64,000 bases of DNA from a virus, in the IMG/VR virus record IMGVR_UViG_3300045988_150172, one strand, 5' to 3'. Positions 2,405 to 63,592 of this stretch are shown one piece after another; within the stretch, counting starts at the first letter, position 1, and every line of letters starts with the position of its first letter. Under the pieces are notes generated by a model. The model was not told the origin of the DNA. It did no database searches and saw only the letters and a program-made list of their open reading frames with translations. A program made the position numbers and the translations under genes.

Positions 2405-2412
2405 AAACGATT

Positions 2413-6352: not shown

Positions 6353-6658
6353 TATTGGAAGGATGAACAGATTGTTATTATTAGTTTTGAGGATGGTCGG
6401 CAGATGGAATTTGATTCCAAGAAAAAACTTGTTGTAGAACGTAACGGCCAACACATAGAATTATGTGCGAAGGATTTTGAAGTCGGGGACAATATACTTG
6501 CATATTGATGATAATTCATGATTATATTCACGGAATGTGTTATTAAAGTATAGATAATATAATTATGTCGAAGATAACAAAAATTAAGATTGAGGACAGG
6601 AAGGGATTCGTGCGTGTTTCCCTTCCTGACGAGTAGCCCCCATCAGTAATGGTGGGGG
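6353..6658 (+). other. intervening sequence in dnaE (putative group I-like intron)
   Basis: The conserved DnaE motif is split, with RVG upstream and QSEIDVDF downstream. The downstream part is in frame but has no start codon before M6716. The candidate 5' site follows U6352 and the 3' site follows G6658. Strong hairpins lie at 6598-6627 and 6635-6660. Confidence 0.45.
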
Positions 6659-9643
6659 CAGAGTGAAATTGATGTAGATTTTCCCGGAGAAGACCGAGGA
6701 AAAGTCAAGCAGTATATGGAACAGCGTTTTGGTGAAGTTAATGTCTGTTCAGTGGGTACTTACTCCGCCTTGCAGTTAAGAGCGGCTATTAAGGACATGT
6801 CTCGTGTGTATGGGCTGGAGTTTCAGGAGGTGAATGACATGATGAAACTCTTTGGAGTGGATGATCGTAAGCCTGAAGACCTGTTTAGGATAGCCTGTGC
6901 TCAACCGCGTGTGAAGAAGTTCGTTAAGGATCACCCTGACTTGGTCAATGAGGTCATGCTGATTATGCCAGCACCAAAGGCACGTTCAGTTCACGCCTGT
7001 GCAACCATGATATTTCCAAAGGAGCATGATATGTTCCACTGGACGCCTATTCGTAAGCAGAATGGAGAATATGTGACTGAATGGGAGGGTGGTGAAATGG
7101 ACGGTGCTGGATTTTTGAAAAATGATATTCTGGGTATTAAACAGCTGGATAAGTTTCAGAATATGGTGCGTCTTGTGAAAGAGAATGAGGGTGTTGATGT
7201 GGACATTTTCAATGTACCGCTTGACGACCCAGAGGTTTATCGTTATTTTCAGAATGGCTGGACGGAAGATAATTTTCACTTTGGCTCACGTGGTTTGACA
7301 GGCTACTGTAAGGAGATGAAACCTGAAAACATAGAGGACTTGATTGCAGCTATTGCCCTGTATCGCCCTGGAGCAATGGAGAACGGTTTCCATACGGAGT
7401 ATGTTAAGCGTAAGGAGGGTGCGCCTGTAAGTTACTTTGTAGGTTCCGAAGAAATTCTCTCTAATACTTATGGGATTTTTTGTATTTCGGAAGATAGCGA
7501 TGTGCTGACTGAAAGAGGTCTTGTTAAGATTCAGGATATCATTCCTGGAAAGGACAGAGTTAAAACAGAGGATGGTTCTTTTCAGACAGTCTATTTGAAG
7601 AAGGATAATGGTGTTAGAGATGTCGTTGAAGTCCAAACAGGCTTTGGGCGGCCAGTGCTCTGCACCCCTAATCATAAGTTTCTAACAAGAGAACGTGGTT
7701 GGCAGGAAGCACAGAATTTGCGACACAATGAGGAAATTGTATGTTATTTTGAACAACCGTTAAGAAAGGATGATCTAACTGAAAGGGAATGTCTTGAACA
7801 TTGGCTGTTAGGGTATTTTCTTGCAGAGGGTAGTTGTGGTTCATCTCCATATTTTACTGTTACCAATAAGGAAGTTGCTGAAAAGGTGTCTCAGATTATA
7901 TTGAAACTCTTTCCATCTATGATGGTAGGTATTAAGGAGAAAAAGACTGTTCATAAATCAGGTAGGATTGGTATAACAACACGAGTATATGTGAGACAGA
8001 AGAATGGCAACAATGGCTATTTTAATGCGAATTATGAACCTAATCAGTTTATTGTTTGGTTGAAAAAATGGGGTGTTTGGGGTCAGAGCTGTTATACCAA
8101 GAGACTTCCTAAAGATTATTCCTTGGACATGATTGTTGGTCTATTGGAGGGTGACGGCTGTATGAAGAATTATACTTTGCGTCTTTGTAATAAGGAACTT
8201 TCTATGGATGTTTATATGGGGTTGCAGTCTTACGGGATTCAGTCTTCATATAAAATTAGTAAGAGTGGAATACCTGTTGTAAGTTGGAATGACTTGAATC
8301 AAGAGTTTAATCTTAGATTGTTTAGTCATAAAAAATTGGTAAGACCGTCGACAGTACATTCTGGTTATGGTAGGGTTCGTTCTATTACTCCTATGGGGGC
8401 ACGGAGAGTGTATGATTTGAGTGTGGATAATGTTCATAGTTTTGTTGTAAATGGCTGTGTTGTAGCGAATTGCTTCCAGGAACAAATTATGGAATTGTGT
8501 AAGTGCTTGGGTGGGCTTTCACTTGTGGAAGCTGATGATGTGCGAAAGGCTATGGTGAAGAAGAAGTATGAAGCACTTCACCAGTATCATCCACGATTTG
8601 TCGACAACTACGTGACACAGTTCGGTGTGACGAATGAATATGCTGAAAATGTGTGGGATGCTATTGACAAGGCTTCCACCTATCTGTTCAACCGTTCTCA
8701 TGCTGTTGCCTATGCTCTTACAGGTTATATCTCACAGTGGATGAAAGTTCATTATCCGATAGAATACTGGAGTGTGGCATTTAAGGAAGCAACAACAGAT
8801 GACTATCCTCGTTATATTGCTGAGATCAATAAGACAGGGGTCTGTACCGTAAAACCTGTGGACATTAATCTGTCAGGAACAGGTGTGTATATTGACTTTG
8901 CGGCGAAGACGCTTTATTGGTCAGTTACAGGTGTGAAACAGGTTGCCGACAAGGCAGCAACGCAGATACTCAAGGAACGGGACGAAAATGGTAGGTACTG
9001 GTCTCTTGATGACTTTGTAACTCGACACAAGTGGAAGGGTTCTGCTGTGAACACAAGGGTTGTGCAGAATCTAATTCTTGCAGGTGCATTTGATGCAGTA
9101 GAGAACATTACTGATGCCCCACAGAGGGTGGAACTGCTGATATCCTATTTAGCTTCCACGAAAAACAAGCTGAATGGGGAGGATCCTATTATAGCAGGGT
9201 TTGACAATCACAGGAATGATGCTTGGTGGTGGCAGCTTATGCAGAAGAAGCTTTCAGGGCTTGCATTCTTTGATTATAGTAGTATCTATGAAAAGGTGAA
9301 GCAGTTCTTTCCTGACGGTTATGAATATCACACATTTGAGGACTGTAATGATGTTGAATATCGTCCTAACAGGGGTTATGTGATTGTTGGGGGTTATGTG
9401 TCTGCAATAGACCTTAAAAAGACTAAAAAAGGAGATGTTCTGTGTCGCATTACACTGGAAAATAATTATGAGTTCCTGGATTTGGTGGTATTTCAGTCAG
9501 AATATGAACGTCTTCAGGAGGAAATTACGGCAAGCAAGGATAATATTGTGCTTTTGAATGCAACGCTCTACTATGATGCACGAAATGATAGAAATGCCTT
9601 ACGTGCTGACATGGAGACCAATATGGTGACATTTAAGTTATAG
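6659..9643 (+). CDS. dnaE: DNA polymerase III alpha (DnaE) exon 2, intein-containing
   Basis: In-frame EIDVDF, SVHACATMIFP, LKNDILGIKQLD, ALYRPGAM, NTYGIF/CFQEQIMEL, ADDVRKAMVKKK and FNRSHAVAYALTGY. The frame is open from 6650; the first ATG is at 6716. Confidence 0.85.
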   Translation, partial: QSEIDVDFPGEDRGKVKQYMEQRFGEVNVCSVGTYSALQLRAAIKDMSRVYGLEFQEVNDMMKLFGVDDRKPEDLFRIACAQPRVKKFVKDHPDLVNEVMLIMPAPKARSVHACATMIFPKEHDMFHWTPIRKQNGEYVTEWEGGEMDGAGFLKNDILGIKQLDKFQNMVRLVKENEGVDVDIFNVPLDDPEVYRYFQNGWTEDNFHFGSRGLTGYCKEMKPENIEDLIAAIALYRPGAMENGFHTEYVKRKEGAPVSYFVGSEEILSNTYGIFCISEDSDVLTERGLVKIQDIIPGKDRVKTEDGSFQTVYLKKDNGVRDVVEVQTGFGRPVLCTPNHKFLTRERGWQEAQNLRHNEEIVCYFEQPLRKDDLTERECLEHWLLGYFLAEGSCGSSPYFTVTNKEVAEKVSQIILKLFPSMMVGIKEKKTVHKSGRIGITTRVYVRQKNGNNGYFNANYEPNQFIVWLKKWGVWGQSCYTKRLPKDYSLDMIVGLLEGDGCMKNYTLRLCNKELSMDVYMGLQSYGIQSSYKISKSGIPVVSWNDLNQEFNLRLFSHKKLVRPSTVHSGYGRVRSITPMGARRVYDLSVDNVHSFVVNGCVVANCFQEQIMELCKCLGGLSLVEADDVRKAMVKKKYEALHQYHPRFVDNYVTQFGVTNEYAENVWDAIDKASTYLFNRSHAVAYALTGYISQWMKVHYPIEYWSVAFKEATTDDYPRYIAEINKTGVCTVKPVDINLSGTGVYIDFAAKTLYWSVTGVKQVADKAATQILKERDENGRYWSLDDFVTRHKWKGSAVNTRVVQNLILAGAFDAVENITDAPQRVELLISYLASTKNKLNGEDPIIAGFDNHRNDAWWWQLMQKKLSGLAFFDYSSIYEKVKQFFPDGYEYHTFEDCNDVEYRPNRGYVIVGGYVSAIDLKKTKKGDVLCRITLENNYEFLDLVVFQSEYERLQEEITASKDNIVLLNATLYYDARNDRNALRADMETNMVTFKL
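7481..8470 (+). mobile_element. intein with LAGLIDADG homing endonuclease in DnaE
   Basis: Starts CISEDSDVLTERG, block B is CTPNHKF, LAGLIDADG motifs are LLGYFLAEGS and IVGLLEGDGC, and it ends VYDLSVDNVHSFVVNGCVVAN followed by +1 Cys. Removal joins YGIF to CFQEQIM. Confidence 0.85.
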
Positions 9644-25414: not shown

Positions 25415-25591
25415 ATGAATACATTGAAAAGATTTAAGTGTAAATTCTTTGGTAGCAGAGAACGCAAGGGGCAAATCACACAGCAGACATCTTTTGTGAC
25501 AACCTATGACCGTGCTATGGTTGAGGATGTCCTTAGAAATCAAGGGTGGGTTAAGATCAACGGCCTAAAGATTAGAGAATGCGAAGAATAG
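25415..25591 (+). CDS. small hypothetical ORF (58 aa)
   Basis: Hand translation gives MNTLKRFKCKFFGSRERKG...KIRECEE. Overlaps the rnhA start by 13 nt. Below the track cutoff. Confidence 0.3.
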   Translation: MNTLKRFKCKFFGSRERKGQITQQTSFVTTYDRAMVEDVLRNQGWVKINGLKIRECEE

Positions 25592-26055
25592 ATATATACA
25601 CTGATGGGAGCTGTAATGCACGAACTAGGGTTGGCGGATATGGTGTATATGCTAGGGATGGTGAGAATGAGGTGGTGATACACCAAGGCTACACCAGCAC
25701 AACAACAGCTAGGATGGAAATGAGAGCTGTGCTTCATGCAATACGCTTGGTATCCAATGAACCTCTGGACGTCTATATTCATTCTGATTCTCAATTCGTA
25801 GTAAATGCGTTTAAGGAGGGGTGGCTATCCAGATGGCGGCTGTCTAATTTTGTTGGAGTGATGAACGCCCCCATCTGGAAAGTTATTGTGCTTGAATTGG
25901 CAAAACGACCACAGGTTCATTTTCACATTAGATGGCTTCATGGACACCAGAAGGATATTCTGGATGAAGCAGTCTTTGGAAATACGGTGGCTGATGCACT
26001 GGCTGACTATAAGAATCAGGAATCATATATAAAAGATAAAGACGATAATCTATGA
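25579..26055 (+). CDS. rnhA: ribonuclease HI
   Basis: IYTDGSC, GGYGV, ARMEMRAVLHAI, IHSDSQFVV and GNTVADALA. Confidence 0.9.
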   Translation: MRRIDIYTDGSCNARTRVGGYGVYARDGENEVVIHQGYTSTTTARMEMRAVLHAIRLVSNEPLDVYIHSDSQFVVNAFKEGWLSRWRLSNFVGVMNAPIWKVIVLELAKRPQVHFHIRWLHGHQKDILDEAVFGNTVADALADYKNQESYIKDKDDNL

Positions 26056-32228: not shown

Positions 32229-32900
32229 ATGGCAAAACCGGATTGGGTAACCGTTAGTCCTTCATCAGGTGTGGGTGCAGGAAGTTTTAACGTTACTTTC
32301 GCACAGAATACATCCACTTCTGCAAGAAGTGGGATAATAACTGTTAAGACTATTAGCGGATTAACACATGATATACAGGTAACTCAAGCAGGAAAGCCTG
32401 CAAATTCTTTGCAGGCTTCAGGAGTTTTCTGTGGTATTGGAATAATAAAGACCTACGTTCCTAGTGGAATATCGCAGATAACTTTTTGTGTTTCGTTATG
32501 GTGTTCAAATGGTGCAAAGATTCCTGCTGGACATATGACATTAACCAAGGGAAGTCAAACTTTTATGACTGGAGAATTATCCTTTGACTCTTCAAAAGTA
32601 GCATTTGATAACGGTGTGACCGTCAACAGGGTGGTTATAACATGTAATCCAGGTTCTGAGCCATGGGCTACCCCTTTCAAGAAGTGTATTGGGTCATTGG
32701 ATTACGACCCAGGAGATATGGCATTTGGAGCAGAAGGATCTTCCACTACCTATCCAGCTACTTTTGTTCAATTTTCTAATGCTGAATTTGGATTTAATAT
32801 TCCAACACCAGTTCCTATATCAGGAGAGACTACTTTTGTGTATAAGGGAAGATATGTGGATGATTTTCCAGTTATTAACATTACCACAAAGTTAAGCTAA
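32229..32900 (+). CDS. BACON-domain protein, paralog 1
   Basis: N-terminus MAKPDWVTVSPSSGVGAGSFNVTFAQNTSTSARSGIITV..IQVTQAG fits the BACON pattern. Unique ~165-aa C-terminal part. Confidence 0.7.
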   Translation: MAKPDWVTVSPSSGVGAGSFNVTFAQNTSTSARSGIITVKTISGLTHDIQVTQAGKPANSLQASGVFCGIGIIKTYVPSGISQITFCVSLWCSNGAKIPAGHMTLTKGSQTFMTGELSFDSSKVAFDNGVTVNRVVITCNPGSEPWATPFKKCIGSLDYDPGDMAFGAEGSSTTYPATFVQFSNAEFGFNIPTPVPISGETTFVYKGRYVDDFPVINITTKLS

Positions 32901-32919
32901 TTTTTAATATTCTTATATT

Positions 32920-33597
32920 ATGGCAGATTTAACGTGGGCTACATTGGGTAAGTCGTCAGGTATGGGAAATGATACCGTGTCTGTAACAGTTTCGGAGAAC
33001 GATACGATATATAGTAGAGAGGGGTTTATAAAGGCTGAGGCTCAGGATGGGAGTGGTATTGTCAAAAGTATTAAGGTGATACAATACGGAAAGCCTAGCT
33101 TTAAGATTCAATTGTATCTTGTAGGAATTGAAACAGGAGCTTCTGGTGGTCCTATGATCATTAATTCTTATTATTGTGTGTTTACACCATTAATACCTGT
33201 AACAGCCTATGATCATCTGATAGTGGAAGCATCTGTGTGTCAGGGTGACGGCAGTCTCATAAGTTTTCCAGAACAGACTGGAGGTGTGGGTAGTGCTGAC
33301 CCTACTATTTTGAAATTTCCTATATCCTTAAATGTAGGAGACACATCTTCTAAGTGTAGCTATGTATTTTCCCAGCCTATACATCTTCTTGGTGCACATG
33401 GTATGTACTTTAAGGATATAAAGGCTTATTCAGAACCAAATTCAAGATATGTTTTCGGGGATAAGGGTGTATCAACTGTATATGGTGAGATTGAATATCT
33501 TGTAGTAGACGCTTCTTCTATTTCTAAGGAGGCAGATGGTGGTACTTATTCTGTAACCGTGGGCACACAGGATAGCGTGGAATGGACTGTTGAATAA
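32920..33597 (+). CDS. BACON-domain protein, paralog 2
   Basis: MADLTWATLGKSSGMGNDTVSVTVSENDTIYSREGFIKA..IKVIQYG. Confidence 0.7.
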   Translation: MADLTWATLGKSSGMGNDTVSVTVSENDTIYSREGFIKAEAQDGSGIVKSIKVIQYGKPSFKIQLYLVGIETGASGGPMIINSYYCVFTPLIPVTAYDHLIVEASVCQGDGSLISFPEQTGGVGSADPTILKFPISLNVGDTSSKCSYVFSQPIHLLGAHGMYFKDIKAYSEPNSRYVFGDKGVSTVYGEIEYLVVDASSISKEADGGTYSVTVGTQDSVEWTVE

Positions 33598-33620
33598 TAA
33601 CTTATAAAAATTTTAATATT

Positions 33621-34301
33621 ATGGCAAAACCAGATTGGATAACATTAAGTAAGAGTTCAGGTACAGGAAATGATACTGTAACTGTTACGGCAGCAAAGAA
33701 TACCACAGGAGCAGCTCGGAGTGGTTCCATTACAGTAACAGCAGGAGGGGTCGCCAAGACTGTATCCATCACACAGGAAAAGATTGTAAATTCTATTCGA
33801 GGTGGTGCTAGTCAGTTTATGGACATAATTGTTCCGTATGATGTTTTTACTACTATAAGTTTAACACTAACCTTTCAAGCACAGATATTGTTGAGTCGTA
33901 GTTCTACTGTTGTGACATGTGAGCCGTTAAGAATACACGCAGATGAACGCACACAGAAGGATTCATTTGGTGTTCTGGATCTTTATTCTAGTACGTATGA
34001 ACTTGTTGATGAGGATTATGTGACAGGCATTGAGGTTTTTGTCTATGCAGGCGACCAACCTGATGGAACACCTTGTGGTCAAATTAGATGGGAAATTCTT
34101 AATGATTCACCGAATCTTACTTTTAGATGCTATAATGGATTATCAGGACAGACGGCACAGGCAACTCTTGGTTCTAATTATAGAAGATCAATAGCCTTAG
34201 ATTTTCTGTCTAATCAACTACCTGTTTCCGGTGAAACTGTAATTGAGTATAATGGCAATGCTTTAGAGCGTCCTAATATACGGATAATCGCACTCAAATA
34301 G
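33621..34301 (+). CDS. BACON-domain protein, paralog 3
   Basis: MAKPDWITLSKSSGTGNDTVTVTAAKNTTGAARSGSITV..VSITQEK. Confidence 0.7.
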   Translation: MAKPDWITLSKSSGTGNDTVTVTAAKNTTGAARSGSITVTAGGVAKTVSITQEKIVNSIRGGASQFMDIIVPYDVFTTISLTLTFQAQILLSRSSTVVTCEPLRIHADERTQKDSFGVLDLYSSTYELVDEDYVTGIEVFVYAGDQPDGTPCGQIRWEILNDSPNLTFRCYNGLSGQTAQATLGSNYRRSIALDFLSNQLPVSGETVIEYNGNALERPNIRIIALK

Positions 34302-34924: not shown

Positions 34925-35248
34925 ATGAACTCACTAAAGACACTTTGGACACGTGTAAGGTCACACAGCAGCCACAAGCAGCAGAGTCAGCATCATTGGC
35001 TGGACGGCATGTCCACACGCGACAGGATCAACCTGATGGCTCGGGCACACGCCATCTTCTTTCGTAGTGGAAATCTTATAAACTATGAGGACATTGTAGG
35101 TCGATGGTTTCGTACGGTTGGATTCAAGGTGGTGTCGGGAGAGGCATGGATATCACCGTATTCCGTACAGTCACAGTTTAGGGTTGTTGACCCGAGCTGT
35201 CATCAGAATATAACTGTAACATTTACTTCAAAAAGGGTTTTGCTATGA
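34925..35248 (+). CDS. hypothetical protein upstream of sigma factor
   Basis: ORF track. ATGA overlap with the sigma gene. Confidence 0.55.
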   Translation: MNSLKTLWTRVRSHSSHKQQSQHHWLDGMSTRDRINLMARAHAIFFRSGNLINYEDIVGRWFRTVGFKVVSGEAWISPYSVQSQFRVVDPSCHQNITVTFTSKRVLL

Positions 35249-35868
35249 CATACGTTATGAAGAGATCCAGGAGGGAGGTTGACTTCTTTCTGGTGCAGAG
35301 AGCCATCTGCGGTGATCAAGCGGCCTATTCTGAAATATACAACAGTTACAGCCGATTCGTTCGAAATGCCGTAAGCAGCATTCTCATCAGGGTTCCACAG
35401 GACGTGGATGACGTGTGCATGGAGACATTTGAAAAGGCGTTTCAGTCCCTGCACAAGTTCCAGCCGGACTATCAGCTGTCGGCATGGCTTGTTCGCATAG
35501 CCGTAAACAGTGCCAAGGACTGTCTGCGTAGGCATGGGAGAGTTCAGCTGGTCTCTCTGGACGTGGATGATACCGCTGATGATGCTGGGGTCGTTCCTCT
35601 GGCGGCATGTATAGCCACGGATGACCCACTGCCGACGACGTGCGTGGAGAATGTACAGGACATTGAATATCTTGAGGGGTTGATGCGCCAGCTGCCTGTG
35701 TCTGAAGCCACCATGCTTCGGCAGAAATGTCTTGACGGCATGTCCAGTGATGAGATTGCCGACTTCATGGGTGTGAGCAGAAAGGCCGTCAGACGCTGTG
35801 TTCGTAATGGGCTGAAGCATCTACAGGAGATTGTAAGCATCAATGACATTAGACTTAGAAGCAGATAA
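35245..35868 (+). CDS. ECF-type sigma-70 family factor
   Basis: Region 2 is YSRFVRNAV...DVDDVCMETFEKAF...SAWLVRIAVNSAKDCLRR. Region 4 is LPVSEATMLRQKCLDGMSSDEIADFMGVSRKAVRRCVRNGLKHL. Confidence 0.85.
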   Translation: MTYVMKRSRREVDFFLVQRAICGDQAAYSEIYNSYSRFVRNAVSSILIRVPQDVDDVCMETFEKAFQSLHKFQPDYQLSAWLVRIAVNSAKDCLRRHGRVQLVSLDVDDTADDAGVVPLAACIATDDPLPTTCVENVQDIEYLEGLMRQLPVSEATMLRQKCLDGMSSDEIADFMGVSRKAVRRCVRNGLKHLQEIVSINDIRLRSR

Positions 35869-36652: not shown

Positions 36653-37198
36653 ATGAATGTATATGAAGCAGCCCTGAAGACAGTATGTACCGCCTATGAG
36701 ATAACGCCTGAAGTGTTACGTAGTAGATGCAGAAACAGGCGTCTTGCCCTAGCACGATGCTGGTACTGTCTATTGACAGGAAGCAAGCCAAGCGGCAGAG
36801 TGGGTAGATATGTCGGTCGAGATCATGCGACAGTGGTGTATAGTCGTAGAATGATGAAGGACTTGATTGATATATACCCAGTGTATATGGAGCGATGGAG
36901 AGTTCTCAAGGCCATGTTTGAAAAGTACCTTGCGGAGGAGAGCGTGCCGATGCCGTCCATCAGAAGATACACGTCCCTATGGAAGGATTACAGGGATCTA
37001 CTGTCCGCTGCTGAAGCCGCCAGAAGAAATCTGAACGAACTGTCCACGGCCATCGTGGGACAGCAGTGCTGGGTGTGTGAACGGCAGGAGGGGGATCTTG
37101 TGGTCGTGAAGCCCACATCCACGGAATCTGACTATCTGAGCCTGGACGATATGAAGGATATGATCAGAGAACTGCATGGTAACCAGCGTTCAGCATAG
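36653..37198 (+). CDS. DnaA domain IV-like DNA-binding protein
   Basis: RCRNRRLALARCWYCLLTGSKPSGRVGRYVGRDHATVVYSRRMMKDLI parallels the DnaA C-terminal R..i..aRqiamyL...s...IG..fgrDHtTV motif. Confidence 0.6.
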   Translation: MNVYEAALKTVCTAYEITPEVLRSRCRNRRLALARCWYCLLTGSKPSGRVGRYVGRDHATVVYSRRMMKDLIDIYPVYMERWRVLKAMFEKYLAEESVPMPSIRRYTSLWKDYRDLLSAAEAARRNLNELSTAIVGQQCWVCERQEGDLVVVKPTSTESDYLSLDDMKDMIRELHGNQRSA

Positions 37199-37269
37199 AT
37201 GGGTGAGGTGCATAATTAGAACTTATCATCCTCGATAAGCAGAACTTATAGTTGATCATAATTGATAGG

Positions 37270-37314
37270 CACACAGAGAATCCGGAGACTGGTCCTGATC
37301 CTGTGTGTCTTTTC
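37270..37314 (+). terminator. hairpin terminator
   Basis: CACACAG-loop-CTGTGTG followed by TCTTTTC. Confidence 0.5.
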
Positions 37315-37365
37315 GTGTGAACTCCGTAGGATGTTCACACCTGGAACGTTCGAACAGAACGTTCC
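37315..37365 (+). other. two consecutive perfect hairpins
   Basis: GTGTGAAC/GTTCACAC (37315-37340) and GGAACGTTC-gaaca-GAACGTTCC (37343-37365). Confidence 0.7.
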
Positions 37366-37451
37366 CCAACTTCCTGATATTCAGAACATCCCATTATTCC
37401 TATGATAAGTTTTTCTTATAATGGATAATAACCATTCCTTATATGGAGCAT

Positions 37452-37660
37452 ACATAGAGGTCAGGCTGGTATCATATAGAGGGGTGTTTGAGGTCACGGT
37501 CTGGATGGTCTGGGTCAGGTCTGTATCATGTTGAGGTCGGTTTGGGGAGTTAAGGGGGTATTTTGAGGTCGGTTTGATATCATGTTGAGGGGTTGGGTAG
37601 ATCAGTATAGAGGACTGTCTGGGTTCGGTTTAGGTGGAGAGGTTCTGGGTATTTAGAGCC
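37452..37660 (+). repeat. degenerate direct repeats (iteron-like), G/T-skewed
   Basis: TATCATRTWGAGG at 37469, 37523 and 37577 (54-bp spacing). GAGGTC at 37456, 37489, 37532 and 37564. GTCGGTTTG occurs twice. Very few C on this strand. Confidence 0.75.
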
Positions 37661-37781
37661 GTGCGGAACCGTCTGCGTCTAAATCCCTTTCGTTCACGTC
37701 GTGGCTGTTTTCGGGCGAAATTAGCCGATGACAGGGTGTTTCCGACATAGATGCATCACCTATGAGCAGTCACTTTCCTAA

Positions 37782-37936
37782 ACTCCGGGATTTTCGGTAC
37801 TTAACGGAAGCCCATCGGGACAGGCGGATGCCGAAATTTTGTGAAAAACTGGTCGTGAAAATGACGCGAAAAACATAATTCGTTGATAATGAGTGACTGA
37901 TTTCAAATGTTAAGTAGTTGATACCAAAATCCCGGA
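37782..37936. repeat. 12-bp inverted repeat pair
   Basis: CTCCGGGATTTT (37782-37793) and AAAATCCCGGAG (37925-37936). Direct repeats AAATGTTAAGYAGTT at 37904 and 37978. ATCCCGARWTTACG at 37962 and 38025. Confidence 0.7.
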
Positions 37937-38080
37937 GATGTATAAAACGAAATTAAGCAAAAATCCCGAAATTACGTAAAATGTTAAGCAGTTTTTGAAG
38001 TCCGTTCTCATAACTCCCCTCAGGTATCCCGAGTTACGATGATTAAAATTATAAGTTAGTAGAATTCCTTGAAAATTTCA

Positions 38081-38130
38081 TTGGATATTCAAGAAAATGC
38101 ACCAACTTTGCACATGTAATCATTAAATCA
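38081..38130 (+). promoter_or_regulatory. promoter cassette (CCAACTTTG subclass) with conserved leader
   Basis: TTGGATATTCAAGAA, then CCAACTTTG, then GTAATCATTAAATCA. ATG at 38139. Confidence 0.55.
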
Positions 38131-38138
38131 TTGAAATC

Positions 38139-38429
38139 ATGGACACAAAGAAACAGCTTCAGAATCGTATTGATTCACGTGAAACACATATTAGAAACCT
38201 CTCTGCTGAGATTGAAGACCTGACAGCCAAGATTAAGGCTCTGCAGGAATGGCAGGTGCAGCTCAAGGATGAACTTGCCGCCATCAAGGACGCCAGAGCT
38301 GGGATCTATGACAAGTGGTATCGGTATCACAGGGAGGACAATTCACACTATGACACAGCGTGGGAAGTGGAGAAGAGGCTTATGCTGTCAGAGGGGTATA
38401 CAGGTGAATGGAATGTAATAGATGGATAA
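38139..38429 (+). CDS. hypothetical coiled-coil protein
   Basis: ORF track. Confidence 0.55.
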   Translation: MDTKKQLQNRIDSRETHIRNLSAEIEDLTAKIKALQEWQVQLKDELAAIKDARAGIYDKWYRYHREDNSHYDTAWEVEKRLMLSEGYTGEWNVIDG

Positions 38430-38625: not shown

Positions 38626-38840
38626 AACAGAATAACTGGGTGGCCTGCCATCCATTTATCATATATGATAAATGAAAAATGGATAAGAATGGATTTTTAT
38701 GGAAAGACTGCTCCTATATATAAAGATGAAGTACAGCCAGACGCTCACATCCGAGCAGAAAAAGGCATGCTGTCTCCTTATATGCCTGATGGATCTTATG
38801 GGAAGTAAGAATTCCAAGGAAGATTCTACGAAAATATAGA

Positions 38841-40188: not shown

Positions 40189-41088
40189 ATGTCACACTTC
40201 AACAACATCACATCGTTCCAGAACCTCAAGGATCAGTACAGAACCCTCGCCATGGCAAACCACCCTGACAGGGGCGGTGACACTGCCACCATGCAGGAGA
40301 TCAATGCCGAATACAGCCGCCTGTACGCCATCTGGGTAAACAGAATAGAGGATGCAAACGTTCGTCCTACGATGACTGCCGAGCAGTCCATCCGTCACTT
40401 CTACACGCAGAACGGCTGGGAGGGATCCAACTATGACTCCAGTCTCAGCACCAAGGACATCGCCGCGCTGGTTCGTGAATACTGCAAGCAGAACTGGAAC
40501 CAGTGGAGGTTCTCCATCAGATGCCACTTCGCCTCCATGTGCAGCGAGATCAGCGTTCATCTCAAGGGCGGTCCGATAGCTTCAGGTCTGGTCGGTGAGC
40601 AGGGCACGTGCTGTCAGGAGTTCGGCTACCAGACGAGATACCAGTACAGAAGTGAGCGTGACGAAAGAGTAGCACCCGAAGCGGAGATCGTGATGCAGGA
40701 CGTCATCGCCTATCTCCAGTCCTTCAACTATGACGACAGCGACGGCATGATTGACTACTTTGACACGAACTTCTACATTCACGAGTGCATCGCTGGCAGC
40801 ATGGAGTGGAAGCACATTCAGAAGCAGGCTCGCATCACAGCCCCACAGCCTACACCAAGCGAGGAACAGGCCGCTGCCCCACAGCTGGGGGAGGGTGTGG
40901 ACATCATCACCTATTCTGACAGAGCTCTGGCCGTGGTAGGTGACACCAAGCCGCTGAGAGCACGTCTCAAGGAGCTCAAGGGTCGCTTCAATCCAGGCCT
41001 GACGGTGGACGGCATTCGGAGGGCTGGATGGGTGTTCAGCGCAAGGAGCTACACAGCGGACACACTTAGACAGGCGATATTCGCCTGA
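40189..41088 (+). CDS. J-domain (DnaJ-like) protein
   Basis: LKDQYRTLAMANHPDRGGD with the HPD tripeptide, then EINAEYSRLY. Confidence 0.85.
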   Translation: MSHFNNITSFQNLKDQYRTLAMANHPDRGGDTATMQEINAEYSRLYAIWVNRIEDANVRPTMTAEQSIRHFYTQNGWEGSNYDSSLSTKDIAALVREYCKQNWNQWRFSIRCHFASMCSEISVHLKGGPIASGLVGEQGTCCQEFGYQTRYQYRSERDERVAPEAEIVMQDVIAYLQSFNYDDSDGMIDYFDTNFYIHECIAGSMEWKHIQKQARITAPQPTPSEEQAAAPQLGEGVDIITYSDRALAVVGDTKPLRARLKELKGRFNPGLTVDGIRRAGWVFSARSYTADTLRQAIFA

Positions 41089-55022: not shown

Positions 55023-55151
55023 ACACCTCGATTTGGGGGTTTTATGCCCCGATTTGAGGGGTTTTACTAAATCGATTTTTACCCTTTTACTGAGAATACA
55101 AACATTATAAAATTGAGCCTTTTCTTCACACCTCGATTTGGGGGGTTTTAT
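55023..55151. repeat. CGATTT..GGTTTTA repeat family flanking the rep 3' end
   Basis: ACACCTCGATTTGGGGGTTTTAT (55023-55045) and ACACCTCGATTTGGGGGGTTTTAT (55128-55151). Degenerate copies at 55048-55067 and 55071-55090. Confidence 0.7.
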
Positions 55152-55938
55152 CCTGCACCTGTTTGAAAATCTCAAATTGAATGTGTGTAACAGGCTTTCT
55201 ACCCCGAATTATAGGACGACCAGGAACTTCCTTATAAAGTGGTGCAAACGTAAAATTTAATACTGTTTGACAATCCATAAATGCTAATCTAGAAGCATCC
55301 AACCGTTGCCGTTTTATAACATCCCAAGATTCATCTGTATTTATATGTAACAATTCTCTTAACTTTTCTATAGAAATTACAATTTGTCCTTGCTGTTTAC
55401 TTAAAGAATAGTATTTACTGATAAATTCATACACATCCATAGTTGTTGTAGAATTCAACTTACATACGGATGGGATATGAACATTACGATAATTGTCTTT
55501 AATCACTTCTAAAAAGAATCTAACGGATTCAAGACCCATAACAATTTCATTCTTAGTTCCATCCACTTCATCCCATATAATTTTAATAAATGGGAAAAAT
55601 ATGCGACCACGAGTTTTAGAACTTCCTTTTTCAAGAAAATAAGCATTTTTAGCCAAGGATAATAAAGCCTTTTTATAGGAAGTTCTAATTTTATTACGCA
55701 CACTTAATAGGCGGATGTTTACCTTACAGTGAAAATAACAATAGGAATCCAAATCAAGTTCCCTTTTTAGGAATTTAATATAGGTTTCCCAGTTTTCATC
55801 AAGTTTGGTAAAGTCTATTTTACCCCAAAACGGCTGTAACTGTTGAGCGACAAGATACAAGCATTTTCGTTGAGCAACGTTCCATTCTGAAAGATCCACT
55901 TCCATAGGAAATCTTACTGTTTCTATCATAATTTTCAT
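55126..55938 (-). CDS. Rep_3-like iteron-binding replication initiator
   Basis: The layout YKKALLSLAKNAYFLE / NEIVMGLESVRFFLEV / TTTMDVYEFISKYY...GQIVISIEKLRELLHI / RGRKPVTHIQFEI resembles two winged-helix plasmid initiators. Iterons lie directly upstream. The start is set at the ATG at 55938, after the -7 box. Confidence 0.65.
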   Translation of the reverse strand: MKIMIETVRFPMEVDLSEWNVAQRKCLYLVAQQLQPFWGKIDFTKLDENWETYIKFLKRELDLDSYCYFHCKVNIRLLSVRNKIRTSYKKALLSLAKNAYFLEKGSSKTRGRIFFPFIKIIWDEVDGTKNEIVMGLESVRFFLEVIKDNYRNVHIPSVCKLNSTTTMDVYEFISKYYSLSKQQGQIVISIEKLRELLHINTDESWDVIKRQRLDASRLAFMDCQTVLNFTFAPLYKEVPGRPIIRGRKPVTHIQFEIFKQVQDKTPQIEV

Positions 55939-55949
55939 TTTATTTGCGG

Positions 55950-55957
55950 CAAATATA
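55950..55957 (-). promoter_or_regulatory. -7 box TATATTTG for rep
   Basis: The minus strand reads TATATTTGCCGCAAATAAAATGAAAATTATG. Confidence 0.45.
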
Positions 55958-56008
55958 AATGTTTTATAGGTAAATAACAAATTTATCATTTTACACTTGG
56001 CAATTAGA

Positions 56009-56160
56009 AGTATAGGTTTTTGTGCAGAAAGTTATAGGTTTTTGTGCAGAAAGTTATAGGTTTTTGTGCAGAAAGTTATAGGTTTTTGTGCAGAAAGTTA
56101 TAGGTTTTTGTGCAGAAAGTTATAGGTTTTTGTGCAGAAAGTTATAGGTTTTTGTTTTAC
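56009..56160. repeat. iteron array: seven 22-bp-phased direct repeats
   Basis: The core TATAGGTTTTTGT begins at 56012, 56034, 56056, 56078, 56100, 56122 and 56144. There are six contiguous copies of GTGCAGAAAGTTATAGGTTTTT. Confidence 0.95.
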
Positions 56161-56202
56161 ACAACTTACTGTGCCACAGGACATTATCGGGGTTTCGCGG
56201 AT

Positions 56203-56300
56203 GGGGTTATAGTATAGGGTTATAGCTTTGAATGGTTATATTTGATAGTATTACTCCTAAAGTCGTAATACATATCATAACCATTCTTTTGGTTATAGTT
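56203..56300. repeat. GGTTATAG half-site repeats in A/T-rich DNA
   Basis: GGTTATAG/GGTTATAT occurs four times and shares GTTATAG with the iteron. Confidence 0.5.
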
Positions 56301-56355
56301 TGAAGGGAAATATAGAAAAGGGAACCAAAACGCCACATCTGAAATAGAGGGCTTC

Positions 56356-56403
56356 GAAAGGGAGACTCCTCCCTATGGTCGGAGGTCTTGTCTTCTCCCT
56401 TTC
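56356..56403 (+). other. 10-bp long-range stem enclosing an inner hairpin
   Basis: GAAAGGGAGA (56356-56365) pairs with TCTCCCTTTC (56394-56403). An inner CTCC...GGAG hairpin lies between them. Confidence 0.5.
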
Positions 56404-56416
56404 TACCGCCCAGCAG

Positions 56417-56441
56417 AGGGTCGACGGAGCGACCCTATTTT
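56417..56441 (+). terminator. orphan terminator-like hairpin
   Basis: AGGGTCG-acggag-CGACCCT followed by ATTTTC. No upstream + strand ORF. Confidence 0.45.
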
Positions 56442-56514
56442 CATATAGGAGATTTCTTTATGAAAGACGTTATATAATCAGCATTTGAAAGATTTTCAGA
56501 TTAATACCAAGATC

Positions 56515-56608
56515 AGGTATATAGCATAATGGGAGTGCGCTTATGATCTTACTCAGATTTTTAGGGTAATATTAGAAAGAGGTGGTGGTTCGAATCCACC
56601 TATACCAC
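56515..56608 (+). ncRNA. tRNA-like element (good acceptor, D-arm and T-arm; aberrant middle)
   Basis: AGGTATA/TATACCA acceptor (6 bp plus an A-A mismatch), U8, D-arm GCAT-AATGGGA-GTGC, T-arm GGTGG-TTCGAAT-CCACC. There are 44 nt between position 26 and the T-arm, and no canonical anticodon stem-loop. Confidence 0.35.
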
Positions 56609-61873: not shown

Positions 61874-63592
61874 ATGAGTAGGAAGAAACACTTCATAAAA
61901 GGTCAGATGGGGGCTGGTTTGTCAGCTCCCATAGACCGTTTAGATGGGATGTCCATTCAGGAATTGAGCTTGATGTCACAGGCTGCACCTCTTGCTCTCC
62001 AGAATAGACTGGAAAAGGCTCTTAGATCAGAAAATGTTGAAGAGGTGTTAAAGGCACAGGCGTTCATTGCACAGCAGGAGAAGAATGGTAAGGCTGTTAA
62101 GCCGGACATCAAATCCATCCTATGGAACCCCTCTGAAATTGGTTTTAATGGTCGTGGATATCGTGATCCTAATAACGGCATACCGTTTACCACACTTCAG
62201 CGAATGGGTGATATCTATATCATTAAATCCATAATCAACACACGTATTGAGCAGATTCAGAATTTCTTAAGGTATAGTGATGACGACCAGAAGCCTGGAT
62301 TTCAGCTTCGCTACAAGCGAGTTGTCGGTGGTGACATTAAGGAAGTATCCAAGAAGGACATGAAAGTGGTTGAGGGGCTTGTGCGTTTTCTTGAGGACGG
62401 TGGTGAGAATGATAAATGGTCTTCAGAGGATAATTTTCAGGACTTTACTCGTAAGGTCATTAAGGATTCCCTGTGTCTTGATCAGATGTGCTTTGAGGTT
62501 GTTCGCAGTCGTAATATGAAAGTGAACAAGTTTAGAGCAGTTGATGCCGCCTTAATACGACAGCTTGATACTGATGATCCACGCTATGCAAGTATGTTTG
62601 AACAGTACAGGTGGCACGGTTATCTTCCTCGTTATGCGATGGTCTGGGATGGCCAGATTATTCGTAACCCAGCTACTGATGAGCTTGTTGTCTATTATCC
62701 ATGGGAACTTGGCTACGGCATACGTAACAAGACGACCAATGTATTCAGGAACGGCTACGGCTGTTCAGAGCTGGAGACTCTTATAGAAGTTGTGACGTGG
62801 ATACTGTGGGGTATGCAGTATAACGGTAATTTCTTTAAGCAGGGGTCACAGCCAAAGGGATTCATCAATGTTAAGAATTCCAACATTGATCAAGGTACGT
62901 TGAATGAGTTCCGTCAGGACTGGAAACAGACAATGTCCAGTGTCTATAATGCCCACAAGATTCCTGTGATACAGGGTATTGATCTTGAGTGGATAGACTT
63001 GCAGCAGTCCAATAAGGACATGGAATTTACGGAGTGGATCAAGTTTTTGTTTGTTGTGACGTGTGCTGTCTATCGTATTGATCCGTCAGAACTGGGCTTT
63101 CAGTTTCAGGATGCCGCAAGGGTGTTTGGACAGGACGGCCAGAAGGAACGTCTTGATCATTCGCAGAAAAAGGGGCTGTTCCCGCTTCTTATCTTTTTCC
63201 AGAACATCATAAATAGATATGTTATATCTGAAATAGATGACCGCTTTGAATTTGTGTTTACAGGCGTGGACATCAAGGATGAGTCCGCTCAGATAGAAAT
63301 TGACAAGAAGAAGCTGGATGCAGGTGTTGTTTCTCTTGAGGACATGTTTCGTAAGTATTCAGGTAGGGAGCTTGACCCTGAAAAGGATACGATCCTTAAT
63401 TCCATCTATCAGACGGCTCAGAGTAATAAGATGATGGGTGGTGAGGATATGAACGGTGCTGTTGATGAGATGAACGGTGAGGGTGGAAATGGTGATTTTG
63501 ACATTGCAGACATGCTGATGCAGAAATCTCAGGGAAACCCTATTCTTGGCAAGGCACTGGAATTTATTGACAATCAGTTATCGGCTAAATAA
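61874..63592 (+). CDS. portal protein
   Basis: 572 aa. YNGNFFKQGSQPKGFINVK...EFTEWIKFLFVVTCAVYRIDPSELG fits the conserved portal core pattern (ff..G..p.G.l / fgvP). Acidic C-terminus. Confidence 0.65.
   Translation: MSRKKHFIKGQMGAGLSAPIDRLDGMSIQELSLMSQAAPLALQNRLEKALRSENVEEVLKAQAFIAQQEKNGKAVKPDIKSILWNPSEIGFNGRGYRDPNNGIPFTTLQRMGDIYIIKSIINTRIEQIQNFLRYSDDDQKPGFQLRYKRVVGGDIKEVSKKDMKVVEGLVRFLEDGGENDKWSSEDNFQDFTRKVIKDSLCLDQMCFEVVRSRNMKVNKFRAVDAALIRQLDTDDPRYASMFEQYRWHGYLPRYAMVWDGQIIRNPATDELVVYYPWELGYGIRNKTTNVFRNGYGCSELETLIEVVTWILWGMQYNGNFFKQGSQPKGFINVKNSNIDQGTLNEFRQDWKQTMSSVYNAHKIPVIQGIDLEWIDLQQSNKDMEFTEWIKFLFVVTCAVYRIDPSELGFQFQDAARVFGQDGQKERLDHSQKKGLFPLLIFFQNIINRYVISEIDDRFEFVFTGVDIKDESAQIEIDKKKLDAGVVSLEDMFRKYSGRELDPEKDTILNSIYQTAQSNKMMGGEDMNGAVDEMNGEGGNGDFDIADMLMQKSQGNPILGKALEFIDNQLSAK

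What the first reader, a model, noticed from the sequence alone, without database searches (positions are those of the whole stretch)
37199..38138. 0.94-kb ORF-free island directly downstream of a DnaA-domain-IV-like gene
No ORF of 60 aa or more exists on either strand for 940 bp, in a genome where intergenic gaps are usually under 100 bp. The region begins with a terminator and two perfect hairpins. It continues with phased repeats and then a CpG-rich half with inverted and direct repeats. It ends at a promoter cassette. The gene just upstream encodes a protein whose N-terminal half mimics the DNA-binding domain IV of DnaA. A repeat field next to a DnaA-like binder is a plausible second (lytic) origin, a packaging site, or a long non-coding RNA locus.
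Basis: partly seen in the sequence, partly recalled or inferred. Interest (0 to 1): 0.7.

Follow-up and report, generated by a model that had tools for sequence, protein, structure and literature searches.

The report
Conserved non-coding control island in phage
A 940-base gene-free stretch in a ~100-kb gut-type Bacteroidales phage is real, is better conserved than the genes around it, and looks like a DNA docking site for proteins (possibly a second replication origin) rather than an RNA gene, but its function is still unproven.

Summary

The island is present in 13 distinct relatives, all ~100-kb phage contigs. It is among the best-conserved DNA of the locus: 75-92% identity where the neighbouring coding DNA is mostly 48-65%. 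Substitutions show no codon periodicity and no small ORF is conserved.

Anatomy:
- a covariation-supported terminator hairpin
- two invariant perfect palindromes, flanked by mirrored CTTAT[CA] hexamers
- a G-rich, C-poor degenerate repeat array, variable in length, with GAGG cores phased at ~10.7 bp
- a 440-bp CpG-rich block with five AWATCCCGRA sites in both orientations
- one copy of a promoter cassette that occurs five times in the window

The CpG-rich block shows no RNA fold signal or covariation, there is no Rfam hit, and host DnaA boxes are absent. A better primary origin lies at 56 kb: a Rep_3 initiator gene beside 6.6 perfect 22-bp iterons.

Best reading: a DNA-level nucleoprotein site between a terminator and a promoter, possibly an auxiliary origin (confidence about 0.33). 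This is a new member of a known kind and of moderate interest.

The parts
36653..37198 (+). Upstream neighbour: 181-aa protein. It has a DnaA-domain-IV-like HTH (residues 1-94), a long helix (101-135) and a beta-hairpin with a conserved CxxC. It has no AAA+ domain.
   Evidence: Pfam Bac_DnaA_C 37.8 bits, above the gathering score of 31.5. The RDHATV motif aligns with the RDHTTV motif of DnaA. The AF2 model gives TM 0.87 to 3pvp. Homologues are aligned in A8.
37199..37455 (.). Block A: conserved 250-bp segment that holds four palindromes/hairpins and six CTTAT[CA] hexamers.
   Evidence: 86.6% identity to L003, whose coding DNA is 69-77% identical. Alignments A5 and A6.
37222..37250 (.). Left hexamer triplet: CTTATC-N6-GATAAG palindrome, then CTTATA.
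   Evidence: Invariant in 13 sequences. Part of the densest CTTAT[CA] cluster in the window: 6 in 260 bp against 1.56 per kb window-wide. Coordinates.
37267..37315 (+). hp1: terminator-like hairpin AGGCACACAG...CTGTGTGTCT followed by UUUUCG. Probably the intrinsic terminator of the upstream operon.
   Evidence: Two pairs change on both sides (AU 7 / GC 4 / GU 2, and CG 12 / UA 1). Several changes between G-U and G-C or A-U are legal only on the + strand.
37315..37340 (.). hp2: perfect 8-bp palindrome GTGTGAAC-N10-GTTCACAC.
   Evidence: Stems are invariant in 13 sequences while a loop position varies. The hp1-hp3 region folds with z = -6.1.
37343..37365 (.). hp3: perfect 9-bp palindrome GGAACGTTC-GAACA-GAACGTTCC.
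   Evidence: Completely invariant in 13 sequences. Not found in any GTDB representative genome.
37404..37443 (.). Right hexamer triplet: GATAAG-N5-CTTATA, then CTTATA. It mirrors the left triplet.
   Evidence: 27-nt inverted repeat I1, arms 37223-37249 and 37405-37431, 78% complementary. The hexamer columns are near-invariant: L018 reads GAAATAAG and L025 CCTTATAA. Coordinates.
37456..37623 (+). Variable G-rich, C-poor degenerate repeat array. Units begin with GAGG(T/G)(C/G). There is a 54-bp super-period and ~10.7-bp phasing of the cores.
   Evidence: Length is 67-199 nt across the 13 homologues and sequence is unalignable between clades. Composition is nonetheless always G 38-49%, C 4-10%, GC skew +0.59 to +0.83. 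Summed GAGG phasing power is 31.9 against a null maximum of 18.7 +/- 2.0. The GAGGTCGGTTTG family clusters here.
37624..37660 (+). Conserved 'master' copy of the repeat unit (TTCGGTTTAGGTGGAGAGGTTCTGGGTATTTAGAGCC), at the start of block B.
   Evidence: Near-invariant in 13 sequences. The array units resemble it, sharing GGTCGGTTTRG ... GGGTATTTWGAG.
37663..37676 (+). Small hairpin GCGGA-N4-UCYGC with a free-varying loop.
   Evidence: Stem pairs are GC 9 / GU 4 and GC 12 / GU 1, with six different loop sequences.
37624..38062 (.). Block B: conserved, CpG-rich 440-bp segment with long invariant runs and one replaced patch at about 37735-37780.
   Evidence: 75-92% identity to distant relatives. 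CpG observed/expected is 1.40, the highest in the window. No RNA fold signal, z -0.09 and -0.27. Covariation term only -0.6.
37681..37690 (+). AWATCCC site 1 (AAATCCCTTT).
   Evidence: Columns are mostly invariant; L006 and L017 read AAACCCC and L012 and L022 read GAATCCC. Coordinates.
37783..37794 (-). AAAATCCCGGAG site 2, in inverted orientation.
   Evidence: Perfect 12-nt inverted repeat with 37926-37937. If it were an RNA helix, the central position would be a C.A mismatch in 8 of 13 sequences (alignment).
37926..37937 (+). AAAATCCCGGAG site 3.
   Evidence: Three of the four AAAATCCC copies in the window are in the island.
37960..37971 (+). AAAATCCCGAAA site 4.
38024..38033 (+). GTATCCCGAG site 5.
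   Evidence: Invariant in 12 of 13 sequences; L017 reads TATCTCGAG. Coordinates.
38063..38138 (+). Promoter cassette for the downstream operon: TTGGATATTCAAGAA palindrome, then CTTTGC-N4-GTAATCATTAAATCA, then 8 nt before the ATG.
   Evidence: Five copies with the same architecture, all directly upstream of ATG starts, beginning at about 10467, 38060, 39421, 45026 and 51980.
38139..38429 (+). Downstream neighbour: 96-aa coiled-coil protein. It is absent in the L003 clade, where the cassette drives the next gene.

Best explanation
The island is a non-coding, DNA-level cis-acting control region at the junction of two + strand gene modules.

Shown:
- It opens with the intrinsic terminator (hp1) of the upstream operon, which carries the sigma-factor gene and the DnaA-IV-like gene.
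- It closes with one copy of a phage-specific promoter cassette that starts the next operon.

Inferred:
- The ~700 bp in between is a nucleoprotein assembly site.
- Its parts are two invariant perfect palindromes framed by mirrored CTTAT[CA] hexamer triplets, a helically phased array of degenerate GAGG(T/G)C units whose G-rich, C-poor composition (not its sequence) is conserved, and a CpG-rich block with five AWATCCCGRA sites in both orientations.
- The most likely job is an auxiliary (lytic-type) replication origin that works alongside the Rep_3/iteron origin at 56 kb.
- A dimeric DNA-binding protein would occupy the repeats. The neighbouring DnaA-domain-IV/coiled-coil protein is the obvious candidate; CTTATC shares TTATC with the DnaA box.
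- Rightward transcription into the G-rich non-template strand could help open or prime the DNA. The phage encodes its own RNase H.
For: Non-coding but selected:
- The island is present at the same place in 13 distinct ~100-kb phage contigs.
- Its blocks are 75-92% identical where flanking coding DNA is mostly 48-65%.
- Substitutions show no codon periodicity (26/22/21 and 60/54/53) and no ORF is conserved.

DNA level rather than RNA level:
- Block B has no excess folding energy on either strand.
- An all-pairs covariation scan finds only hp1 and one weak 7-bp helix.
- The 12-mer site occurs in both orientations. As an RNA helix it would carry a C.A mismatch in 8 of 13 sequences.
- GAGG cores are phased at 10.7-10.8 bp, with 0 of 1000 random placements reaching the observed power.

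Origin-like anatomy:
- The array turns over quickly in copy number, even between genomes that are 95% identical.
- There are palindromes, site clusters, and a DNA-binding gene next door in every relative.
- RNase H is encoded at 25579-26055.
- The best single change-point of GC and AT skew within the 52-kb + strand block falls at 37650 and 37800.

Ends:
- hp1 covaries and is followed by a U tract.
- The promoter cassette is repeated five times.
Against: - No experiment or coverage data bear on replication.
- A textbook origin already exists at 56 kb: a Rep_3 initiator (all 7 family members hit Rep3_N, best E 2.8e-9) beside 6.6 perfect 22-bp iterons.
- The island has no DnaA boxes.
- It has no exceptional AT-rich unwinding element: its best 100-bp window is 75% AT and ranks only 15th in the window.
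- A-tracts are not phased.
- It does not resemble the Rep_3 iterons.
- The array units are degenerate (66-76% alike), unlike homogenised iterons.
- GAGG phasing is strong mainly in the window's own clade.
- Skew polarity is opposite to that expected for a bidirectional origin, and per-gene third-position skew already falls from about 35.2 kb.
- In most relatives other small genes lie between the DnaA-IV-like gene and the island.
Confidence: 0.33

Rival explanations
1. Pure transcription-control region. The island is a module boundary or insulator. Terminators end the upstream operon. The interior holds operator or enhancer sites for phage regulators (the DnaA-IV-like HTH dimer, the ECF-type sigma factor, or others) that time the firing of the downstream promoter cassette. 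It has no role in replication.
For: - The terminator and promoter at the two ends are the best-supported parts.
- The sigma-factor gene (35245-35868) and an HTH gene lie just upstream.
- Composition and skew regimes change across this junction.
- Palindromes and both-orientation sites are typical operators.
Against: - The other four copies of the same promoter cassette work without any such 700-bp upstream region.
- Long invariant runs of 30-70 bp and a compositionally constrained 67-199 bp G-rich array are more than simple operators need.
Confidence: 0.25
2. RNA product. A promoter at the end of block A (around 37415-37450) drives a + strand transcript. Its G-rich, C-poor 5' part and conserved block B would act as a long leader or non-coding RNA, for example a Rho-resistant leader, a protein sponge with GAGG/GGAG motifs, or a regulatory antisense partner.
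For: - G-U/G-C alternations in hp1 and in the small hairpin at 37663-37676 are legal only on the + strand.
- The composition of the G-rich field is strictly strand-asymmetric in all 13 homologues.
- No terminator lies between the array and the next gene.
Against: - No Rfam family matches, even at E up to 10.
- Block B has fold z-scores of about 0 on both strands.
- The RNAalifold covariation term is only -0.6, with several uncompensated breaks.
- The motif occurs in both orientations.
- The ~10.7-bp phasing is a duplex-DNA property.
- No recognisable promoter was found upstream of the array.
Confidence: 0.12
3. Plasmid-maintenance site. The Rep_3/iteron replicon suggests that the phage can persist as a plasmid. 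The island would then be its centromere (partition site) or a multimer-resolution site bound by a small DNA-binding protein.
For: - A Rep_3 replicon is present.
- Arrays phased at about 11 bp and flanking palindromes recall parC-type centromeres (comparison from general knowledge).
- A phage-plasmid lifestyle with two predicted origins has been proposed for another Bacteroidales phage, the prototypic crAssphage (PMC10983915).
Against: - No ParA/ParM-type ATPase, ParB or recombinase was found among the ORFs scanned around the island or elsewhere in the window.
- About 39 kb of the genome lies outside the window and was not seen.
Confidence: 0.1
4. Genome terminus or packaging signal. The island would be the collapsed terminal repeat, or the pac/cos region, of the virion DNA, followed by the first early promoter.
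For: - It is a repeat-laden non-coding region followed by many small hypothetical genes and a compositional change. This resembles the ends of T7-like genomes (general knowledge).
- Mirrored hexamer triplets recall the P1 pac layout (general knowledge).
Against: - The portal (61874-63592) and the presumed terminase module start at about 57 kb, next to a different repeat region.
- Contigs of the same phage are broken at unrelated positions. The island sits at about 33.6 kb and about 88 kb in two assemblies, and none was seen to start or end at the island. Apparent locus ends were storage-chunk boundaries.
Confidence: 0.07

Closest known systems
Non-coding origin regions of dsDNA phages with repeats and hairpins, such as lambda ori iterons, SPP1 oriL/oriR and the lactococcal phage c2 ori (general knowledge)
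   Same: - It is a single-copy intergenic or gene-adjacent region with direct repeats spaced at multiples of about 11 bp.
- It has palindromes.
- A DNA-binding protein gene is adjacent.
- Transcription runs into the region.
   Different: - No sequence similarity to any deposited phage.
- The repeats are degenerate rather than homogeneous.
- There is no marked AT-rich unwinding element.
- No origin activity has been shown.
Rep_3/iteron plasmid-type origin (pPS10, F, P1 oriR class), represented in this same window at 55126-56155
   Same: - A tandem array with a 22-bp register lies next to a DNA-binding protein gene.
   Different: - The island has no Rep_3 gene beside it.
- Its units do not resemble the 22-bp iterons.
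- The 56-kb array is 100% homogeneous, whereas the island array is 66-76% alike.
Transcription/R-loop-primed origins: ColE1 RNA II, T4 oriF/oriG, mitochondrial CSB (general knowledge)
   Same: - A G-rich non-template strand lies downstream of conserved hairpins.
- The phage encodes RNase H.
- The region is conserved at nucleotide level rather than through a protein.
   Different: - No promoter has been identified upstream of the G-rich field.
- No conserved RNA secondary structure lies downstream.
- R-loop formation is untested.
Two predicted origins in the prototypic crAssphage, a proposed phage-plasmid of Bacteroidales (PMC10983915)
   Same: - It is a Bacteroidales phage of about 100 kb for which two origin regions and a plasmid-like state have been proposed.
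   Different: - The replication proteins differ: RepL there; Rep_3 and a DnaA-IV-like protein here.
- There is no sequence relation.
- The phage here is not crAss-like. Its DNA polymerase III alpha resembles that of Cellulophaga/Tenacibaculum-type phages at about 40% amino-acid identity.
Bacterial oriC / DnaA-box clusters
   Same: - The neighbouring protein has a genuine DnaA domain IV fold and keeps the RDHxTV recognition motif.
   Different: - There are no TTATCCACA-like boxes in the island, even with one mismatch allowed.
- The protein lacks DnaA domains I-III, so it cannot act as an ATP-dependent initiator.

Membership tests
Iteron-type replication origin | Tandem direct repeats of about 17-22 bp with a shared core, spaced in helical register | tested here: inconclusive
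   GAGG(T/G)C cores are spaced 22, 11, 43, 32, 22 and 23 bp, and the best summed period is 10.7 bp (0 of 1000 null placements). However, the units are only 66-76% alike, and phasing is weak outside the window's clade.
Iteron-type replication origin | Adjacent gene for the initiator that binds the repeats | not testable with these tools
   A DnaA-domain-IV/coiled-coil protein gene lies 0-600 bp upstream in all relatives. Binding is untested.
Iteron-type replication origin | AT-rich DNA unwinding element beside the repeats | tested here: not met
   The most AT-rich 100-bp window of the island is 75% AT at 38040. It ranks only 15th in the window and lies in the promoter cassette.
Iteron-type replication origin | Strand-composition (GC skew) switch of the polarity expected for an origin | tested here: not met
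   Cumulative skew rises through the island. The skew change-point at 37.65 kb goes from high to low G over C on the + strand, which is the opposite of a bidirectional origin. The sign flip is at 52-56 kb.
DnaA-dependent origin (oriC-like) | Cluster of DnaA boxes TTATCCACA | tested here: not met
   No match with one mismatch or fewer between 32863 and 43099. The window-wide count (19) is at chance level (22 +/- 5).
DnaA protein family (for the 181-aa neighbour) | Domain IV HTH together with the AAA+ domain III | tested here: not met
   Domain IV is present. The rest of the protein is a coiled-coil helix and a CxxC hairpin, with no AAA+ domain. It is a domain-IV-only protein, not a DnaA orthologue.
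Structured non-coding RNA | Match to a curated Rfam covariance model | tested here: not met
   Only the tRNA at 56515 reaches a gathering score. Within 37100-38250 nothing is better than chance snoRNA-like hits at E 0.06-4.8.
Structured non-coding RNA | Conserved secondary structure supported by compensatory changes and excess stability | tested here: not met
   Met only for hp1 (2 covarying pairs). Block B has z -0.09 and -0.27, a covariation term of -0.6, and uncompensated breaks.
Intrinsic (Rho-independent) terminator | Stable GC-containing hairpin followed by a U tract, on the strand of the upstream gene | tested here: met
   hp1 (37267-37310) has a 10-bp outer stem plus inner pairs, followed by UUUUCG (UUUUUG in two relatives). 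Covariation and G-U changes are + strand specific.
Phage promoter cassette of this genome | CTTGGATATYCAAGAA, 10-13 nt, CTTTGC, 4 nt, GTAATCATTAAATCA, 8-10 nt, ATG | tested here: met
   Five copies are aligned. The island copy is 38063-38138. Function as a promoter is inferred from position and recurrence only.
pac/cos packaging site | Location in or next to the terminase genes, or at contig or virion ends | tested here: not met
   The portal and presumed terminase lie at 57-64 kb. The island is internal in all long contigs, at varying offsets.
Protein-coding gene(s) below the ORF cut-off or in an alternative code | Conserved reading frame, third-position excess of substitutions, or stops of a single type | tested here: not met

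The most novel reading that the evidence does not exclude
The phage group runs two replication systems. One is a plasmid-type Rep_3/iteron origin at 56 kb. The other is this island, acting as a lytic origin of a new design. In that design a DnaA-domain-IV-only dimer docks on TTATC-like hexamers around invariant cruciform-prone palindromes. Transcription into a compositionally constrained G-rich array forms an R-loop, which the phage RNase H converts into a primer. All of this would occur on thymidine-hypermodified DNA.
Probability: 0.1. Interest if true: 0.65.

Novelty: new member of a known kind. Interest (0 to 1): 0.4.

Why it matters
If the island is an origin or another nucleoprotein hub, three things follow:
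- It would give a handle on how an uncultivated group of ~100-kb Bacteroidales phages replicates and switches gene modules.
- It would show what a stand-alone DnaA DNA-binding domain does in a virus.
- It would add a second case of dual origins in gut Bacteroidales phages.

Practically, the island is the most conserved DNA of the locus. It could therefore serve as a diagnostic marker for this phage group, and as a candidate 'ori-interference' element for genetics.

If it is only a terminator, operator and promoter junction, it is ordinary.

Tried and rejected
- Stop-codon recoding: rejected. Every frame mixes TAA and TGA stops, and most also TAG.
- Hidden small genes: rejected. There is no codon periodicity and no ORF is shared by all 13 homologues.
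- Known RNA families: none found.
- Similarity to deposited phages at DNA level: none.
- Host copies: the hp3 23-mer is absent from 185,579 GTDB species genomes. The two hits to a block-B 19-mer lie inside the coding sequence of a conserved bacterial gene that I read by eye as ffh (signal recognition particle protein; no family search was run), and blast finds no further similarity, so they are chance.
- More distant relatives through the DnaA-IV-like protein profile: only the same phage group came back.
- DnaA boxes: none.
- Similarity of island repeats to the Rep_3 iterons: none.
- A-tract phasing and an unusually AT-rich unwinding element: not found.
- TTATCAT as a genome-wide operator motif: 19 copies against about 16 expected, so not enriched. 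It does occur as a perfect palindrome at 38653-38674.
- Long-range RNA helix between the inverted 12-mers: rejected because of a C.A mismatch in 8 of 13 sequences.
- Contig ends as evidence of genome termini: apparent ends were storage-chunk boundaries.
- Sharp skew switch at the island: only partly true. Third-position skew starts to fall about 2 kb upstream.
- Coordinate correction: an earlier count gave wrong coordinates for hp2 and hp3. The correct ones are 37315-37340 and 37343-37365.
Full report
**Setting**

The window is part of a large phage genome. Almost all genes are on the + strand. They include:
- a thymidine-hypermodification set (5-hmdU DNA kinase domains at 663-2404 and a thymidylate-synthase-like gene at 2413-3528)
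- a split DNA polymerase III alpha (4871-6508 and 6716-9643)
- SbcCD, RecA, NAD-dependent ligase, three helicases, RNase H and GroEL
- an ECF-type sigma factor (35245-35868)
- a portal gene (61874-63592)

The polymerase is about 40% identical to those of Cellulophaga and Tenacibaculum phages and human-faecal contigs. Relatives carry BACON-domain proteins. The host is therefore most likely in the Bacteroidota. Nothing in GenBank phages matches at DNA level.

**Observation**

- 37199-38138 is free of ORFs of 60 aa or more on both strands, and it is the largest such gap in the window.
- No frame has only one kind of stop codon, so recoding is excluded.
- The upstream 181-aa protein is a real DnaA-domain-IV look-alike.
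  - It passes the Pfam Bac_DnaA_C threshold.
  - It keeps the RDHxTV recognition motif.
  - Its model superposes on DnaA DNA-binding domains bound to DnaA boxes, with TM 0.87 and 0.81.
  - It has no AAA+ domain. The remainder is a long helix and a CxxC beta-hairpin.
- All the listed internal features exist:
  - a terminator-like hairpin and two perfect hairpins
  - repeats phased at 54 bp
  - a CpG-rich second half that contains the highest-ranked CpG windows of the whole 64 kb
  - inverted and direct 12-mers
  - a terminal promoter cassette

**Relatives and conservation**

Homologues of the neighbouring protein and exact-pattern scans recovered the island in 13 distinct sequences. All come from ~100-106-kb phage contigs with the same gene order: sigma factor, two small genes, the DnaA-IV-like gene, the island, then an LPD29/DnaJ gene. 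A profile search found no further groups.

The island is more conserved than its surroundings.
- Against L003, whose DnaA-IV-like protein is 48% identical, coding DNA aligns at 69-77%. Block A aligns at 86.6% and block B at 82%.
- In 200-bp windows the island blocks reach 75-92%, where most coding windows are 48-65%.
- Substitutions are spread evenly over the three codon phases, and no ORF is conserved.

The region is therefore non-coding and under strong selection at the nucleotide level. In most relatives one or two small genes (71-128 aa) lie between the DnaA-IV-like gene and the island.

**Anatomy**

Block A (37199-37455)
- A CTTATC-N6-GATAAG palindrome followed by CTTATA.
- hp1 (37267-37310, then UUUUCG).
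- hp2 (37315-37340) and hp3 (37343-37365).
- A mirrored triplet GATAAG-N5-CTTATA plus CTTATA.
- hp1 has two pairs with compensatory changes, and several G-U/G-C alternations that are legal only on the + strand. I read it as the terminator of the upstream operon.
- hp2 and hp3 are invariant in their stems, so covariation cannot speak for or against them.

The array (37456-37623)
- It is 67-199 nt long in different genomes and is rearranged even between genomes that are 95% identical.
- Its sequence is not alignable between clades.
- Its composition is constant: G 38-49%, C 4-10%.
- Its units start with GAGG(T/G)C and resemble the invariant 'master' unit at 37624-37660.
- The cores are spaced at multiples of about 10.7 bp. 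The summed spectral power is 31.9 against a null maximum of 18.7 +/- 2.0. The signal is carried mainly by the window's clade.

Block B (37624-38062)
- It has invariant runs of 30-70 bp.
- It has five AWATCCCGRA sites, one of them inverted.
- It has further direct repeats and a CpG excess (observed/expected 1.40 against 0.67).

The last 76 bp (38063-38138)
- They are one of five copies of a cassette with a CTTGGATATYCAAG palindrome, then CTTTGC-N4-GTAATCATTAAATCA, and an ATG 8-10 nt later.

**RNA or DNA?**

- There is no Rfam match.
- Block B folds no better than shuffled sequence on either strand.
- RNAalifold finds a covariation term of only -0.6 and several uncompensated breaks.
- An all-against-all covariation scan recovers only hp1 and one weak 7-bp helix.
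- The inverted 12-mers would make a 12-bp RNA helix, but 8 of 13 sequences carry a C.A mismatch in its centre.
- Helical phasing and orientation-independent motifs are properties of duplex-DNA binding sites.

I conclude that the interior acts as DNA. A + strand transcript through it is not excluded.

**Is it the origin?**

A much more canonical origin lies elsewhere.
- ORF 55126-55989 (- strand) belongs to a family in which all seven members hit Rep3_N (best E 2.8e-9) and four hit Rep3_C. It also hits PHROG 'replication initiation protein'.
- Immediately upstream of this ORF are 6.6 perfect copies of a 22-bp unit (56011-56155).
- This sits at the only divergent gene junction and at the GC-skew sign change.

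The island itself lacks several origin features.
- It has no DnaA boxes.
- It has no notable AT-rich element.
- It has no similarity to those iterons.
- The best single change-point of GC and AT skew within the 52-kb + strand block does fall inside the island, at 37650 and 37800.
- However, the polarity is wrong for a bidirectional origin, and third-position skew already declines from about 35.2 kb. This marks a module boundary rather than an origin.

**Verdict**

- Shown: a real, conserved, non-coding island bounded by a terminator and a promoter.
- Inferred: the interior is a protein-docking DNA region.
- Most likely role: an auxiliary origin, at about one in three.
- Rivals: a pure transcription-control junction, an RNA product, a plasmid-maintenance site, and a packaging or terminal site.

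The dual-origin idea has a precedent in another Bacteroidales phage (PMC10983915). None of these readings can be settled without coverage, transcript-end or binding data.

Noticed in passing
window 55126-56155: A Rep_3-family initiator gene (- strand, 287 aa) lies directly beside 6.6 perfect tandem copies of the 22-bp unit TATAGGTTTTTGTGCAGAAAGT. The site is at the only divergent gene junction and at the GC-skew sign change. It is a textbook plasmid-type iteron origin and hints at a phage-plasmid lifestyle.
   Followed up: yes
window 56515-56608: A 94-nt tRNA-like gene (Rfam tRNA, 41 bits) for which ARAGORN reports an undetermined identity and a four-base anticodon 'ctta'. It could be a suppressor or a frameshift-type tRNA. 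The long structural ORFs nearby read through in the standard code.
   Followed up: no
window 663-3528: 5-hmdU DNA kinase domains (HMUD2 and HMUDK_hel) lie next to a thymidylate-synthase-like gene. The virion DNA probably carries hypermodified thymidines.
   Followed up: partly
window about 10467, 38060, 39421, 45026 and 51980: A five-copy promoter cassette: CTTGGATATYCAAGAA, 10-13 nt, CTTTGC, 4 nt, GTAATCATTAAATCA, 8-10 nt, ATG. It does not fit the Bacteroidota -33/-7 consensus, so it may be read by the phage's own sigma factor (35245-35868).
   Followed up: partly
window 38653-38674: A perfect 22-nt palindrome within CATTTATCATATATGATAAATG, just after a terminator-like hairpin (38637-38654). 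It is conserved in relatives and carries two inverted TTATCAT half-sites like those in block A.
   Followed up: partly
window 4871-9643: DNA polymerase III alpha appears split into two ORFs: the PHP and N-terminal part (4871-6508) and the remainder (6716-9643). They are separated by a 207-bp ORF-free gap. This could be a split gene, an intron or intein remnant, or a frameshift.
   Followed up: no
window 56200-56500 and 55028-55078: Further repeat families lie around the Rep_3 locus. GGTTATAG occurs four times just right of the iterons. A 22-bp unit TCGATTTGGGGGTTTTATAAA occurs 2.3 times between - strand genes.
   Followed up: no
window 40189-41088: A DnaJ-like plus LPD29-domain gene is the most conserved protein-coding gene of the locus, at 70-94% nucleotide identity to distant relatives. 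It has an unusually high GC content (0.56) and negative third-position GC skew.
   Followed up: no
L003, L015 and L017 loci (about 800-1980), compared with window 32229-34301: The more distant clade carries a C5 cytosine DNA methylase (PF00145) where the window's clade carries BACON-domain genes. The window as a whole is CpG-depleted (observed/expected 0.67), while block B of the island is CpG-enriched.
   Followed up: no
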